Shown one piece after another: positions 25,293 to 29,635 of a stretch of DNA of 64,000 bases. A program made the translations under genes and the position numbers. Numbering within the stretch: position 1 is the stretch's first letter; every line of letters begins with the position of its first letter. The DNA comes from Escherichia coli (GTDB taxonomy: Bacteria > Pseudomonadota > Gammaproteobacteria > Enterobacterales > Enterobacteriaceae): assembly GCF_003018115.1 (NCBI RefSeq), contig NZ_CP027457.1, one strand, 5' to 3'. Below the pieces are notes generated by a model, which searched no databases, had not been told where the DNA came from, and saw only the letters and a program-made list of their open reading frames with translations.

Positions 25293-27146
25293 ATGAGACG
25301 ATTTCTGACGACGCTGATGATACTCCTGGTCGTGCTGGTGGCCGGGTTATCTGCGTTAGTGTTGCTGGTGAATCCGAATGATTTCCGCGACTATATGGTC
25401 AAGCAAGTTGCTGCACGTAGCGGTTATCAATTGCAGCTCGACGGGCCACTGCGTTGGCACGTCTGGCCGCAGCTTAGTATCCTCTCCGGGCGAATGTCTC
25501 TCACCGCCCAGGGCGCAAGCCAGCCACTGGTTCGCGCCGACAACATGCGTCTGGACGTGGCGCTTTTACCACTACTGAGTCATCAACTGAGCGTTAAGCA
25601 GGTGATGCTAAAAGGGGCAGTGATTCAACTGACGCCGCAGACGGAAGCGGTGCGCAGTGAAGACGCTCCGGTTGCACCGCGCGACAATACCTTGCCGGAT
25701 CTGTCAGACGATCGCGGATGGTCGTTTGATATATCCAGTCTTAAGGTGGCGGACAGCGTGCTGGTGTTCCAGCATGAAGATGACGAGCAGGTGACAATCC
25801 GCAATATTCGCCTGCAAATGGAACAAGATCCCCAACATCGTGGTTCATTTGAGTTCTCCGGGCGGGTTAATCGCGATCAGCGCGATCTCACGATATCCCT
25901 TAACGGTACGGTAGATGCTTCTGATTATCCGCATGATTTAACGGCGGCTATTGAACAAATTAACTGGCAGTTGCAGGGTGCAGATTTACCAAAACAAGGT
26001 ATTCAGGGGCAGGGGAGTTTCCAGGCCCAGTGGCAGGAGTCACATAAACGCCTTTCATTTAACCAAATCAGCTTGACCGCCAATGACAGCACGCTGAGCG
26101 GGCAAGCACAGGTCACGCTGACAGAGAAACCTGAATGGCAGCTGAGACTGCAATTCCCGCAACTGAATCTTGACAACCTCATCCCGCTTAATGAAACAGC
26201 GAATGGTGAAAACGGTGCCGCGCAGCAGGGGCAGAGCCAATCAACATTGCCGCGCCCGGTCATTTCTTCGCGTATTGATGAACCGGCATATCAGGGACTG
26301 CAAGGCTTTACGGCTGATATTTTGTTGCAGGCCAGTAACGTGCGCTGGCGCGGAATGAATTTTACAGATGTTGCCACGCAAATGACCAACAAGTCGGGTT
26401 TGCTGGAAATTACTCAACTGCAGGGCAAGCTTAACGGTGGACAGGTTTCACTGCCGGGCACGCTGGACGCGACATCAATAAATCCGCGGATAAACTTCCA
26501 GCCACGGCTGGAAAACGTTGAGATTGGTACCATTCTGAAGGCGTTTAACTATCCGATTTCGTTGACCGGAAAAATGTCACTGGCTGGTGATTTCTCCGGT
26601 GCTGACATAGATGCCGACGCATTCCGCCACAACTGGCAAGGACAGGCACATGTCGAAATGACCGACACGCGCATGGAAGGGATGAACTTCCAGCAGATGA
26701 TTCAGCAAGCGGTAGAACGTAATGGTGGTGATGTGAAGGCCGCTGAAAACTTCGATAACGTAACGCGTCTTGACCGCTTTACCACCGATTTGACGTTGAA
26801 GGATGGCGTCGTGACGTTAAACGACATGCAAGGTCAATCGCCTGTGCTGGCGCTGACAGGGGAAGGCATGTTGAATCTGGCAGATCAAACCTGCGACACC
26901 CAGTTTGATATTCGGGTCGTGGGTGGCTGGAACGGGGAAAGCAAACTGATTGATTTCCTCAAAGAAACGCCAGTACCGCTGCGGGTTTATGGCAACTGGC
27001 AGCAACTCAATTACAGTCTGCAAGTGGATCAGTTACTGCGCAAACATCTACAGGACGAAGCGAAACGTCGCCTGAATGACTGGGCCGAGCGGAATAAAGA
27101 TTCCCGCAATGGCAAAGATGTGAAGAAGTTGCTGGAGAAGATGTAG
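25293..27146 (+). CDS. asmA: Outer-membrane assembly protein AsmA
   Basis: 617 aa with N-terminal signal anchor; position after dcd. Confidence 0.9.
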   Translation: MRRFLTTLMILLVVLVAGLSALVLLVNPNDFRDYMVKQVAARSGYQLQLDGPLRWHVWPQLSILSGRMSLTAQGASQPLVRADNMRLDVALLPLLSHQLSVKQVMLKGAVIQLTPQTEAVRSEDAPVAPRDNTLPDLSDDRGWSFDISSLKVADSVLVFQHEDDEQVTIRNIRLQMEQDPQHRGSFEFSGRVNRDQRDLTISLNGTVDASDYPHDLTAAIEQINWQLQGADLPKQGIQGQGSFQAQWQESHKRLSFNQISLTANDSTLSGQAQVTLTEKPEWQLRLQFPQLNLDNLIPLNETANGENGAAQQGQSQSTLPRPVISSRIDEPAYQGLQGFTADILLQASNVRWRGMNFTDVATQMTNKSGLLEITQLQGKLNGGQVSLPGTLDATSINPRINFQPRLENVEIGTILKAFNYPISLTGKMSLAGDFSGADIDADAFRHNWQGQAHVEMTDTRMEGMNFQQMIQQAVERNGGDVKAAENFDNVTRLDRFTTDLTLKDGVVTLNDMQGQSPVLALTGEGMLNLADQTCDTQFDIRVVGGWNGESKLIDFLKETPVPLRVYGNWQQLNYSLQVDQLLRKHLQDEAKRRLNDWAERNKDSRNGKDVKKLLEKM

Positions 27147-27156
27147 GACAAGTTAT

Positions 27157-27194
27157 GCAGATGGCGGCGTCAATTTGTCGCCATCTGTATTTAT
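27157..27194 (+). terminator. Rho-independent terminator after asmA
   Basis: Stem gcagatggcg / cgccatctg (27157-27187) followed by TATTTAT. Confidence 0.55.
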
Positions 27195-27198
27195 AGCA

Positions 27199-27489
27199 CT
27201 AAGCAGCATGTGGATATTGAATTTCAATACGTTGAATATGTAGTCCTGCATGAGCCATCATGGTGATCAATTTATCGATACTAAAGATCTGGATCTTACC
27301 TCTGGCAAGTTCAGATATGCGAGGTTGAGTGACCCCTAAAGCAGAAGCTGCCTGAGCCTGGCTAAACCCTTGTTGTTCAATCCAGTTATTAATGATCGTT
27401 ACAAGCTCGGCACGGATCCGCATATTTTCCGCTTGTTCAGGGGTGTCACTCACCGCATCCCACACACTATCAAAGGTTTCAATTTTCAT
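27199..27489 (-). CDS. HigA-like HTH (XRE-family) antitoxin
   Basis: About 96 aa; HTH segment FSQAQAASALGVTQPRISELARGK; located downstream of and overlapping the toxin gene (toxin-first order typical of HigBA). Confidence 0.65.
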   Translation of the reverse strand: MKIETFDSVWDAVSDTPEQAENMRIRAELVTIINNWIEQQGFSQAQAASALGVTQPRISELARGKIQIFSIDKLITMMAHAGLHIQRIEIQYPHAA

Positions 27490-27817
27490 TTTTCCGCTCC
27501 TGAACAAGTTCTTTATAGCGTCGTTTGGCTAAATCAATATCCGATTGACTGGTAGTCTGTGTTTTCTTTTGAAAACAATGCAATACGTAAACCGCTTCTT
27601 CAAATTTTGCGACATACATGACGCGATAGATCCCATCAGCATCGCGAGTACGAATCTCTCGCACACCAGGGCCGATAGTTGAAAAAGATTTCCAGTCGTA
27701 TGGGTTTAACCCTTGTTGGATCCTGTCGAGTTGATAGCCAATTTCCTGTCGAGACGATTCTGGAAATGCGCGTAAATCGTCAAGACTGGTATCAAGAAAA
27801 GCCAGCTTTTTTCTCAT
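27479..27817 (-). CDS. HigB-like (RelE/ParE superfamily, phage Gp49-like) toxin
   Basis: 112 aa; GVREIRTRDADGIYRVMYVAKFEEAVYVLHCFQKKTQ fits the Gp49/HigB-type toxin pattern; minus-strand TATAAT (complement of 27834-27839) and AAGGA lie just upstream. Confidence 0.65.
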   Translation of the reverse strand: MRKKLAFLDTSLDDLRAFPESSRQEIGYQLDRIQQGLNPYDWKSFSTIGPGVREIRTRDADGIYRVMYVAKFEEAVYVLHCFQKKTQTTSQSDIDLAKRRYKELVQERKNEN

Positions 27818-27856
27818 TACTCCATCCTTAGATTATACTAAATTTTGTATAAATCA

Positions 27857-27884
27857 AATGCGCAGTTTGAACCTGCGCATTTGA
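27857..27884 (-). terminator. Perfect palindrome downstream of yegH (terminator and/or operator of the HigBA-like promoter)
   Basis: caaatgcgcag ... ctgcgcatttg followed on the minus strand by ATTTATACAAAATTT; sits between the yegH stop and the putative higB -10. Confidence 0.45.
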
Positions 27885-27891
27885 TGTTTTA

Positions 27892-29474
27892 TCACACCTC
27901 GTACTCCATCTCGCCATCCTTACGTAGCGGAATAATCTGCACCTTCTGCACGCGATGGCTTTCCACCTGCAACGTTTTAAGCAGATAATCCCCCACCTGA
28001 ACTTCTTCGCCAGGTTTTGGAATACGCTGTAAATATTCCATCAACAGCCCGGCAATGGTGTGATATTCACGTTTTTCATCCAGCGGCAGCGGCACATATT
28101 GCACCAGATCCTCCAGCGGCATATGACCATTCGCCGTCCAGGAACCGTCCGCATTCTTCTGAATATCATGGCGGGCGTCGATCTCTTCCACTTCGTTCGG
28201 TAAGTTACCGGCAATGGTTTCAGTGACGTCACTTAATGTCACAATCCCTTCCACCGAGCCAAACTCATCCACCACAAAAGCAAAGTGCGTGCGGGCATTA
28301 CGGAACTGCTCCAGGGCAGGTAACAACGGCAAGGTTTCCGGGAACACCAGCGGCTGGCGAATCAACACCCGCAGGTTGAGCGGTTCGCCACGCAGTGACT
28401 GTTGTAGCAGGTCGATAACGTGAACAACACCGAGCAAATCTTCTGCGTCATCACCGTCGGTAACCACCAGCCGCGTATGCTGATTTCGCTCCAGCAACTG
28501 GCGGATCTCGTCTTCCGGCGCGTTGAGATCGATATGCTCAATATCGTGGCGCGACGTCATAATGCTGCTGACAGTACGCTGGTTAAGATTAAGTACCCGC
28601 TCAATCATCCGCCGTTCCTGCGGATTAAAGATCTGCTGGTTACCATGATCCACCAGCATGGACGCGGTTTCGGCGTCCAGTTCCGCATCTTCTTTTTGCC
28701 CGCTAAGCAGGCGCATTACCGCTTCGGTAGTCCGCTGGCGTAGCGTCTGGTTAGCGGAAAGAAAACGTCGCCGGTTAAAGATAGCCAACTGATTGAGCGC
28801 CTCGATCATCACCGAGAAACCAATGGCAGCGTACAGGTAGCCTTTCGGAATGACGAAGCCGAAACCTTCTGCCACCAGGCTAAAGCCAATCATCAACAGG
28901 AAGCTTAAGCAGAGAATAACGATGGTCGGGTGACTGTTAACAAATTGCGTTAACGGCTTGCTGGCCATCAACATCAGGCTGATAGCGATAACCACGGCGG
29001 CCATCATGACCAGTAAATGGTCGACCATCCCGACGGCGGTAATCACTGAGTCGAGTGAGAAGATGGCGTCCAGTACCACAATTTGTGTCACCACCCCCAG
29101 AACTTCGCACCTTTGCGTTGTGTGGGATTATTGCTGTCTTTCCCTTCCAGCCGTTCGTTCAGCTCCATCGTGGCTTTGAACAACAGGAAGAAACCACCAA
29201 ACAGCATGATTAAGTCGCGGGCGCTAAAGGTAAACGAGCGGAAGCTGAACAGCGGTTGCGTCAGGGTGACCAGCCAGGAGATTGACGCCAGCAGTAACAG
29301 GCGCATTAACATCGCCAGCAGCAGCCCGGTAACCCGTGCGCGGTCGCGCTGCTTCGGCGGTAGTTTTTCGGCGAGGATGGCAATAAAGACCAGGTTATCA
29401 ATGCCGAGGACCAGTTCGATCACAATCAGCGTGATTAACCCGGCCCAGATAGACGGATCGGCAATCCATTCCAT
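27892..29474 (-). pseudogene. yegH: yegH (TerC-family membrane protein with CBS/CorC domains), reading frame interrupted near 29088-29096
   Basis: Two adjacent track ORFs (29088..29540 N-terminal TerC part; 27892..29094 C-terminal part, GTG start) together cover one protein remembered as about 527 aa; frames differ by one nucleotide at ...AKFWGW* / (M)VTQIVVLD. Confidence 0.7.
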
Positions 29475-29635
29475 AGTAAGTACAAAACCTATTCGTTGTA
29501 TGACAAATGTCACAATTCGATCATGGATAAATCGGGGCAAAAATGCAATGTTGCAGCACTATTTATCTCATATTATTTGAGGGTAATAACCTCACATTAT
29601 CCCTGAATTAAAAGTGGTAATAATAAAACATTATT

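What the first reader, a model, noticed from the sequence alone, without database searches (positions are those of the whole stretch)
27199..27884. HigB/HigA-like toxin-antitoxin pair between asmA and yegH
A toxin-first pair (Gp49/HigB-like 112-aa protein followed by an overlapping XRE-HTH antitoxin) with its own TATAAT and a perfect 11-bp palindrome just upstream (27857-27884) that could act as operator. From memory of K-12 gene order asmA and yegH are adjacent, so this is probably an accessory insertion.
Basis: partly seen in the sequence, partly recalled or inferred. Interest (0 to 1): 0.5.

Follow-up and report, generated by a model that had tools for sequence, protein, structure and literature searches.

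The report
Accessory Gp49-type toxin–antitoxin pair

Summary
On the minus strand, a 112-aa toxin (27817..27479; Pfam Gp49 PF05973, E 7.6e-30) overlaps by 11 nt a 96-aa HTH_37/XRE antitoxin (27489..27199). The pair fills the asmA–yegH spacer. It is accessory: 792–910 of 5426 complete E. coli genomes carry it here. K-12 has a 273-bp spacer without it. GC is 42% against 52.5% in the flanking genes.

The toxin model is closest to M. tuberculosis HigB1 and S. pneumoniae HigB, and it keeps their catalytic-residue equivalents. All 80 relatives sampled from other Proteobacteria have the same toxin-then-antitoxin order.

The operator assignment is not supported. A palindrome, ATACAAAATTTTGTAT, lies between -35 and -10 in 62 of 81 upstream regions and in 0 of 1498 control segments. 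Its sequence class changes with the antitoxin class. In the window it is TATACAAAATTTAGTATA (27851..27834), overlapping TATAAT.

It starts six bases after the yegH stop codon. Salmonella plasmid copies share the operator but lack the hairpin. It reads best as a bidirectional terminator.

This is a known kind, annotated by PGAP. Interest is low.

The parts
27479..27817 (-). Toxin gene, 112 aa, Gp49-type member of the RelE/ParE superfamily ('HigB' in the loose sense)
   Evidence: ORF. Pfam PF05973 at E 7.6e-30, covering profile positions 1-90 of 90. AF2 model pLDDT 90.9. Best Foldseek matches are Mtb HigB1 7nbu/7awk (TM 0.66-0.68), then S. pneumoniae HigB, RelE and HigB2. E54, R56, R65, F82 and K84 are kept and invariant among homologues.
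27199..27489 (-). Antitoxin gene, 96 aa, HTH_37/XRE DNA-binding protein; overlaps the toxin gene by 11 nt
   Evidence: Pfam PF13744 at E 4.4e-22 and HTH_3 at 4.3e-07. PDB 2a6c at E 3e-14. A homologue lies directly downstream of the toxin gene in 80 of 80 loci from other Proteobacteria. RefSeq annotates the same 96-aa product.
27834..27851 (-). Probable operator: imperfect palindrome TATACAAAATTTAGTATA (minus strand), two half-sites TATACAAAA / TATACTAAA
   Evidence: the repeat finder pair I2. It is the only match in the 64-kb window; 0.01 are expected by chance. The family motif ATACA-N6-TGTAT occurs in 62 of 81 upstream regions and 0 of 1498 control segments. The identical 18-mer lies upstream of Salmonella plasmid homologues. 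The motif class covaries with the antitoxin class.
27832..27837 (-). -10 hexamer TATAAT, overlapped by the operator by 4 nt
   Evidence: Sequence. It aligns with the conserved GTATAaT of the family consensus. There is no canonical -35 at 16-18 nt in this locus.
27853..27885 (.). GC-cored hairpin (13-bp arms, 7-nt loop) six bases after the yegH stop codon; probable bidirectional intrinsic terminator that insulates the toxin-antitoxin promoter from yegH
   Evidence: The scan calls it terminator-like on the + strand. On the minus strand the TGCGCAG/CTGCGCA core is followed by TTTGATTTAT. It is absent from plasmid relatives and from the K-12, Nissle, Z30 and WB61 alleles.
27155..27190 (.). Hairpin between the asmA stop codon and the antitoxin stop codon; probable terminator for the convergent asmA and toxin-antitoxin transcripts
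   Evidence: Centroid -24.5 kcal/mol, z -3.1. The repeat finder pair I4. Followed by TATTTAT on the + strand. Present in the toxin-antitoxin-derived alleles and replaced by a REP in K-12 and Nissle.
27147..27891 (.). Whole variable spacer, from the asmA stop codon to the yegH stop codon, that distinguishes this allele from K-12
   Evidence: Alignment with K-12 and Z30. GC 0.42 against 0.52 in both flanking genes. 792 genomes cover at least 80% of it, and 910 of 5426 have some match.

Best explanation
This is a horizontally acquired type II toxin-antitoxin operon of the Gp49/HTH_37 class, with the toxin gene first. One promoter is inferred to transcribe both genes. Its perfect -10 box is overlapped by an 18-bp palindromic operator.

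Inferred mechanism: a dimer of the antitoxin binds that operator through its HTH and represses the operon, probably more tightly when complexed with the toxin. The antitoxin also neutralises the toxin through its conserved N-terminal segment (SVWDA motif). When freed, the toxin is expected to act as a ribosome-dependent mRNA endonuclease that cuts A-site codons, as M. tuberculosis HigB1 does.

The GC-cored hairpin just upstream is not the operator. It is the yegH terminator, and it shields the operon from read-through.

Shown here: family membership, fold, retention of catalytic-residue equivalents, conserved gene order, conserved and covarying operator, and accessory distribution. Inferred: toxicity, ribosome dependence, repression, the neutralisation mode and termination.
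For: - Family and fold: Pfam Gp49 E 7.6e-30 and HTH_37 E 4.4e-22. Foldseek best matches are HigB1, SpHigB, RelE and HigB2.
- Catalytic residues: R65, F82 and K84 align with S. pneumoniae HigB R73, F90 and K92. E54 and R56 match its E66 and R68 by motif comparison with the residues given in the paper. These residues are shown by mutagenesis to matter in S. pneumoniae HigB and Mtb HigB1 (PMC7984235, PMC9098466).
- Gene order: toxin then antitoxin in 80 of 80 relatives.
- Operator: motif in 62 of 81 upstream regions against 0 of 1498 controls. The consensus is cTTGcc-N4-tATACAAAATTTTGTATAaT, a 17-nt-spaced promoter with the palindrome in the spacer and over the -10. 61 of 70 loci with the close antitoxin type carry ATACA..TGTAT. 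8 of 10 loci with the divergent antitoxin type carry GTATA..TATAC. The identical 18-mer is present in Salmonella plasmid copies that share nothing further upstream.
- Neutralisation: a fused toxin-linker-antitoxin model built on a paired alignment has pTM 0.83. Antitoxin residues 3-13 are ordered at pLDDT above 90.
- Toxin-first decay: E. coli alleles exist with a truncated, frameshifted or half-replaced toxin gene and an intact antitoxin gene. This is expected if the intact toxin is harmful.
- Precedent: the Gp49-type HigBA2 of A. baumannii is autorepressed by HigA, with HigB as co-repressor (PMC5906591).
Against: - No experiment on this locus was found.
- Two Gp49-type toxins of M. tuberculosis, HigB2 and HigB3, were not toxic when tested (PMC9098466). 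Family membership therefore does not guarantee activity.
- The E. coli promoter lacks the family's -35 at 17 nt. TTGATT lies only 14 nt from the -10, and the consensus scan finds no minus-strand promoter.
- The operator here is imperfect, symmetric at 16 of 18 positions.
- On the minus strand the hairpin's T-tract fails the scan's criterion for a terminator tail.
Confidence: 0.8

Rival explanations
1. One reading: the 13-bp-arm palindrome at 27853-27885 is the operator bound by the antitoxin or the toxin-antitoxin complex.
For: It is a strong perfect inverted repeat. Its promoter-proximal arm ends one base from the operator 18-mer and covers the place where a -35 would lie. It is found only in the toxin-antitoxin allele of the spacer.
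Against: It is not conserved with the module. Salmonella plasmid homologues (79-81% aa) have the identical 18-mer but unrelated sequence where the hairpin would be. None of the 80 more distant loci has it, whereas most have the ATACA..TGTAT palindrome. A 7-nt loop and a GC core flanked by A and T tracts are the anatomy of a terminator, and the hairpin begins six bases after the yegH stop codon.
Confidence: 0.07
2. The pair is an inert remnant: the genes are intact and correctly classified, but the toxin is no longer toxic, and the locus persists by hitch-hiking.
For: Mtb HigB2 and HigB3, from the same Pfam family, were non-toxic. Many E. coli alleles are visibly decaying. The promoter has no good -35.
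Against: The window's toxin keeps all 35 columns that are invariant across 18 homologues from three proteobacterial classes, including the catalytic equivalents. This exact protein is on at least 1000 contigs. In the decayed alleles read here, the lesions hit the toxin gene while the antitoxin gene stays intact, which implies selection against the toxin.
Confidence: 0.15
3. The module is active, and its main role is abortive-infection phage defence rather than selfish addiction or locus stabilisation.
For: RelE/ParE-superfamily toxins take part in defence systems (PMC11980606). Homologues occur in prophages (PHROG 2523 at E 1.4e-36).
Against: PADLOC gives only marginal hits: NsnC at E 0.0015 and PDC-M64C at 6.9e-05. 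No defence genes flank it. The closest relatives sit beside plasmid replication and transfer genes, the classic addiction context.
Confidence: 0.15

Closest known systems
Gp49 (PF05973) / HTH_37 (PF13744) toxin-antitoxin pairs of plasmids and Tn3-family transposons (Tn4662a, TnDsu1, Tn5501.12; Lima-Mendez et al. 2020, PMC7157771)
   Same: Same two Pfam families and the same toxin-first order. Relatives lie on 635 plasmid records. One example sits divergent from a resolvase gene, as in those transposons.
   Different: Here the pair is chromosomal, wedged between two core genes, with no transposase, resolvase or repeats at its ends. I did not compare its sequence directly with the named transposon copies.
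M. tuberculosis HigB1 (Rv1955, the TAC toxin; PDB 7awk, 7nbu; PMC9098466)
   Same: It is the best structural match (TM 0.66-0.68) and belongs to the same Pfam family. It has the same long C-terminal helix. Equivalents of E66, R68, R77, F93 and K95 are kept.
   Different: Identity is only 18-20%, and sequence search does not detect it. TAC has a third component, a SecB-like chaperone, which is absent here.
S. pneumoniae HigBA (PDB 6af3, 6af4; PMC7984235)
   Same: It is the only solved toxin found by sequence (E 0.004-0.011). The residue-by-residue match is R65/R73, F82/F90 and K84/K92. Its HigA binds palindromes in its own promoter.
   Different: The antitoxin similarity is marginal (E 0.24). 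Its operator consensus and its four palindromes differ from the single 18-mer here.
A. baumannii plasmid HigBA2 (Armalyte et al. 2018, PMC5906591)
   Same: It has a Gp49-domain toxin with the toxin gene first, a single transcript, repression by HigA and co-repression by HigB.
   Different: It is a different branch of the family. No direct comparison was made here.
E. coli K-12 HigB-HigA (YgjN-YgjM) and P. vulgaris HigBA
   Same: Toxin-first order, an XRE-HTH antitoxin and the RelE fold.
   Different: They belong to other Pfam families (PF09907, PF05015). Neither is hit by this toxin at E up to 0.01, and the HigA equivalog scores below its cut-off. They lie at a different chromosomal locus in K-12 (stated from general knowledge).

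Membership tests
Pfam Gp49 (PF05973), RelE/ParE superfamily | Score above the curated Pfam cut-off over the full domain | tested here: met
   103.3 bits against a cut-off of 23.9, covering profile positions 1-90 of 90.
Pfam Gp49 (PF05973), RelE/ParE superfamily | RelE-type fold: antiparallel sheet flanked by helices, with the long C-terminal helix of Gp49-type toxins | tested here: met
   AF2 pLDDT 90.9; strands at 42-44, 52-58, 64-71 and 75-84; helix at 91-111. The top Foldseek matches are all RelE/ParE-superfamily toxins.
Pfam Gp49 (PF05973), RelE/ParE superfamily | Catalytic-site residues equivalent to SpHigB R68/R73/F90/K92 and Mtb HigB1 R68/R77/F93/K95 | tested here: met
   R56, R65, F82 and K84 are present and invariant in 18 homologues. 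The residue roles come from PMC7984235 and PMC9098466.
Pfam Gp49 (PF05973), RelE/ParE superfamily | Ribosome-dependent mRNA cleavage and growth arrest | not testable with these tools
   Needs expression and cleavage assays.
Pfam HTH_37 (PF13744) antitoxin | Score above the curated Pfam cut-off | tested here: met
   78.1 bits against a cut-off of 27. PDB 2a6c at E 3e-14.
Type II toxin-antitoxin operon | The toxin and a cognate DNA-binding antitoxin are adjacent and co-oriented, and this is conserved across relatives | tested here: met
   80 of 80 loci. The two genes overlap by 11 nt here.
Type II toxin-antitoxin operon | Palindromic operator overlapping its own promoter | tested here: met
   Comparative evidence only: 62 of 81 against 0 of 1498, its position across the spacer and -10, and covariation with the antitoxin class. 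Binding itself was not tested.
Type II toxin-antitoxin operon | The antitoxin neutralises the toxin by direct binding and is the less stable partner | not testable with these tools
   The only support is a confident fused-chain model (pTM 0.83).
HigB proper (Pfam HigB_toxin PF09907, HigB-like_toxin PF05015) | A match to either profile | tested here: not met
   Gp49 is the only Pfam family reported at E up to 0.01.
HigA antitoxin equivalog (NCBIfam TIGR02607) | Score above the curated cut-off | tested here: not met
   16.3 bits against a cut-off of 47.7.
NCBIfam TIGR02683 (upstrm_HI1419 RelE/ParE toxin) | Score above the curated cut-off | tested here: not met
   26.7 bits against a cut-off of 62.85.
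Known anti-phage defence systems (PADLOC) | A significant match to a defence-system protein model | tested here: not met
   The best hits are E 0.0015 (toxin) and 6.9e-05 (antitoxin). Both are partial or generic HTH matches.

The most novel reading that the evidence does not exclude
Across Alpha-, Beta- and Gammaproteobacteria, the whole Gp49/HTH_37 subfamily may share one compact control design that has not been described. A single 16-18-bp palindrome (TATAC-N8-GTATA core) fills the spacer and the -10 of a 17-nt-spaced promoter. In most members the toxin's ATG lies 6 nt after the -10. The toxin would then be translated from a leaderless or nearly leaderless mRNA, while the antitoxin keeps a ribosome-binding site. 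That would be a built-in way to keep the first-encoded toxin below its antitoxin. The E. coli copy would be a derived form: it has a 14-nt leader, and a terminator sits in place of the -35.
Probability: 0.3. Interest if true: 0.4.

Novelty: already known. Interest (0 to 1): 0.15.

Why it matters
For genome annotation it matters little. PGAP already names both genes, and the family is well described.

Three modest points are useful:
- The likely operator of this widespread toxin-antitoxin subfamily can be read directly from comparative data. Together with the matched change of motif and antitoxin class, this gives a ready target for binding assays.
- The asmA–yegH spacer is a many-allele site. 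It shows a decay series of a chromosomal toxin-antitoxin pair in which the toxin gene is hit first. That could serve as a natural experiment on how such modules are lost.
- Palindromes next to toxin-antitoxin promoters should not be taken for operators without checking whether they travel with the module.

Tried and rejected
- **Hairpin as operator.** Rejected because it does not travel with the module.
- **Antitoxin start at TTG 27507 (102 aa).** Rejected. Homologues align from the ATG at 27489, and RefSeq annotates 96 aa.
- **V. cholerae HigB2 as the family of the toxin (my own recollection).** Wrong. HigB2 is in PF06296 and is only a mid-rank structural match.
- **Rfam on the region.** The only hit is a chance-level STnc40 match (E 0.9).
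- **PADLOC.** Nothing convincing.
- **Literature.** No paper holds 'asmA' + 'yegH' + 'toxin-antitoxin', and none holds the operator sequence. The O157 toxin-antitoxin papers concern other loci.
- **The genome-contig scan.** It did not show the asmA–yegH spacer of other Escherichia or Salmonella species. Which allele is ancestral therefore stays open.
- **Flanking repeats.** I looked for target-site duplications or terminal repeats around 27147-27891. Only a 5-nt GATGT occurs near both junctions (read from the sequences), which I treat as chance.
- **Model coordinates.** They are not available to scripts, so toxin-antitoxin contacts in the fused model could not be measured.

Full report
**1. 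What is there**

On the minus strand, between asmA (25293-27146, + strand) and yegH (stop codon at 27892-27894, minus strand), lie two overlapping ORFs.

- The first runs 27817..27479, starts with ATG and encodes 112 aa.
- The second ends at 27199. The mechanical ORF begins at TTG 27507. The ATG at 27489 gives the 96-aa product that RefSeq annotates in an identical locus, and homologues align from that residue.
- The genes overlap by 11 nt.
- A perfect TATAAT lies at 27837..27832, 14 nt before the toxin ATG.
It has 13-bp perfect arms (27853-27865 and 27873-27885) and a 7-nt loop. The RNA centroid energy is -20.6 kcal/mol, z = -5.8 for the 75-nt stretch, and no shuffle of 200 folds as well.

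**2. Family assignment**

- The toxin matches Pfam Gp49 (PF05973) over the whole profile (E 7.6e-30).
- The antitoxin matches HTH_37 (PF13744, E 4.4e-22) and HTH_3.
- NCBIfam gives only sub-threshold matches to a RelE/ParE toxin model and to the HigA equivalog.
- Gp49 is one of the 13 families of the RelE/ParE superfamily. It is listed as toxin-first, mRNA-degrading and ribosome-dependent (PMC11980606).
- Gp49/HTH_37 pairs are a described type, for example in Tn3-family transposons (PMC7157771).
- An AF2 model (pLDDT 90.9) is closest to M. tuberculosis HigB1 (7nbu, 7awk; TM 0.66-0.68). Next come S. pneumoniae HigB, RelE, V. cholerae HigB2 and ParE2.
- The HMMER alignment to S. pneumoniae HigB places R65, F82 and K84 on its R73, F90 and K92. 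By motif comparison with the residue list in the paper, E54 and R56 correspond to E66 and R68.
- Those residues, and their HigB1 counterparts R68, R77, F93 and K95, are the ones that mutagenesis shows to matter.
- All are invariant in 18 homologues from three proteobacterial classes.

**3. Conservation of the pair**

The family is very large: 7103 proteins at E ≤ 1e-5.

- In 80 loci from other Proteobacteria (56-69% toxin identity), a homologue of the antitoxin lies directly downstream in 80 of 80.
- The closest non-Escherichia relatives are in Salmonella (79-81% identity). They sit next to IncFII repA or transfer genes.
- 635 plasmid records hold a relative. A few prophages do too.

**4. Accessory status**

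- The 745-bp spacer matches in 910 of 5426 complete E. coli genomes, and 792 of them cover at least 80% of it. Examples include O157:H7, ST95 and the type strain.
- K-12 has asmA and yegH adjacent, with an unrelated 273-bp spacer. 3819 genomes hold at least 80% of that K-12 spacer.
- GC is 0.42 in the spacer and 0.52 in both flanking genes.
- The exact proteins are on at least 1000 contigs each. PGAP names them 'type II toxin-antitoxin system RelE/ParE family toxin' and 'helix-turn-helix domain-containing protein'.

**5. The operator**

In the 150 nt upstream of the toxin genes of the 80 relatives, the best inverted repeat was usually the same sequence, ATACAAAATTTTGTAT, a few bases before the start codon.

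- A pattern for it is met in 62 of 81 upstream regions and in 0 of 1498 control segments from the same loci.
- Aligned on the palindrome centre, the consensus is cTTGcc-N4-tATACAAAATTTTGTATAaT-N6-ATG. This is a promoter with a 17-nt spacer, and the palindrome fills the spacer and overlaps the -10.
- The motif tracks the antitoxin. 61 of 70 loci with the close antitoxin type have ATACA..TGTAT. 8 of 10 loci with a divergent, longer antitoxin have GTATA..TATAC, although their toxins are about equally similar to the query.
- A P. syringae plasmid copy has TATACGTGATCACGTATAAT, which keeps the TATAC/GTATA arms.
- In the window the equivalent is TATACAAAATTTAGTATA (minus strand, 27851..27834). It is symmetric at 16 of 18 positions, overlaps TATAAT by 4 nt and is the only such site in 64 kb.
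- The Salmonella plasmid copies carry this identical 18-mer, and their sequence further upstream is unrelated.

**6. The hairpin**

- It begins six bases after the yegH stop codon.
- It has a GC core (TGCGCAG / CTGCGCA) flanked by an A-tract and a T-tract. The scan calls it a terminator on the + strand.
- On the minus strand the core is followed by TTTGATTTAT.
- It is absent from plasmid relatives and from the other spacer alleles.
- I read it as a bidirectional terminator that ends yegH transcription just before the toxin-antitoxin promoter.
- It occupies the place of the family's -35. In this locus the only TTG lies 14 nt from the -10, and the scan finds no canonical minus-strand promoter.
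- A second hairpin (27155-27190; centroid -24.5 kcal/mol, z -3.1) lies between the convergent asmA and antitoxin stop codons.

**7. Mechanism: what is inferred**

- By analogy with tested Gp49-type systems, the antitoxin dimer should repress the promoter at the 18-mer, with the toxin as co-repressor. A. baumannii HigBA2 behaves this way, and S. pneumoniae HigA binds palindromes in its own promoter.
- The free toxin should cleave mRNA in the ribosomal A site, as HigB1 does.
- I built a fused toxin-linker-antitoxin model on a paired alignment of 37 loci. It has pTM 0.83. Antitoxin residues 3-6 form a strand and residues 9-13 a helix, at pLDDT above 90. These residues include the conserved motif SVWDA; W10 and A12 are invariant.
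- I take this as a hint that the N-terminal segment binds the toxin. Contacts could not be measured.

**8. Is the toxin live?**

Against: M. tuberculosis HigB2 and HigB3 are non-toxic.

For: full conservation of the invariant residues, and the pattern of decay in E. coli. The decayed forms seen are:
- an 82-aa truncation on 326 contigs, a frameshift, an in-frame deletion and a K84N variant;
- a 23-bp deletion with an intact antitoxin gene;
- an allele in which the 5' half of the toxin gene, the promoter and the hairpin are replaced by a dispersed repeat while the antitoxin gene is intact.

**9. Insertion or loss**

The spacer has at least five forms:
- the full pair (this window);
- Z30 (antitoxin gene, 3' half of the toxin gene, then a dispersed repeat);
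- WB61 (the last 52 nt of the antitoxin gene, the repeat, and a deletion into yegH);
- K-12 (a REP and part of the repeat);
- Nissle (67 bp, a REP only).

Some forms without an intact pair therefore descend from the toxin-antitoxin allele. Whether K-12's form does is unknown. Low GC and the plasmid relatives still point to a horizontal origin of the module.

**10. Verdict**

It is wrong on the operator and loose on the 'HigBA' label. The pair is a known kind that is already annotated. I found no experimental study of this locus. Interest is low.

Noticed in passing
window 29088-29094 (yegH, minus strand): yegH is split into two ORFs (29540..29088 and 29094..27892) by one missing base in a C-run. 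Strain SMBL and K-12 have CCACCCCCCAG where the window has CCACCCCCAG. This is the only difference from strain SMBL across 2.6 kb, so it is either a homopolymer sequencing error or a real frameshift.
   Followed up: partly
L003:4503-4891 (E. coli Z30), also L001:5487-5759 (K-12) and L089:2600-2850 (WB61): The alleles without an intact pair hold an unannotated dispersed repeat of about 390 bp. It occurs at a median of 3 places per E. coli genome, up to 7. It gives a sub-threshold Rfam match to the TwoAYGGAY RNA motif (31.5 bits, gathering score 43, E 0.01) on the minus strand. No copy lies in this window.
   Followed up: partly
asmA–yegH spacer in L001, L003, L089, L090, L091: The spacer is a many-allele site: the full pair, a frameshifted toxin gene, a half-replaced toxin gene, an antitoxin stub with a deletion into yegH, REP plus repeat (K-12), and REP only (Nissle, 67 bp).
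   Followed up: partly
upstream regions of L004-L083 (aligned): In most relatives the toxin ATG lies 6 nt after the -10 hexamer. This suggests a leaderless or nearly leaderless toxin mRNA. The E. coli, Salmonella and Cedecea copies have 11-14 nt with a GGAG or GAGG.
   Followed up: partly
L084:4635-5226 (Salmonella diarizonae plasmid contig): A second, divergent Gp49/HTH pair lies 1.3 kb from the close homologue on the same plasmid contig. It has a different upstream region without the TATAC..GTATA motif.
   Followed up: no
window 27155-27190: A strong hairpin lies between the asmA stop codon and the antitoxin stop codon. It is shared by the toxin-antitoxin-derived alleles and replaced by a REP element in K-12 and Nissle.
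   Followed up: partly
(protein cluster look-up): The toxin and the antitoxin, which are unrelated proteins, are reported in the same 705-member cluster at 90% identity. This is probably an artefact of the clustering, perhaps caused by the overlapping genes.
   Followed up: no
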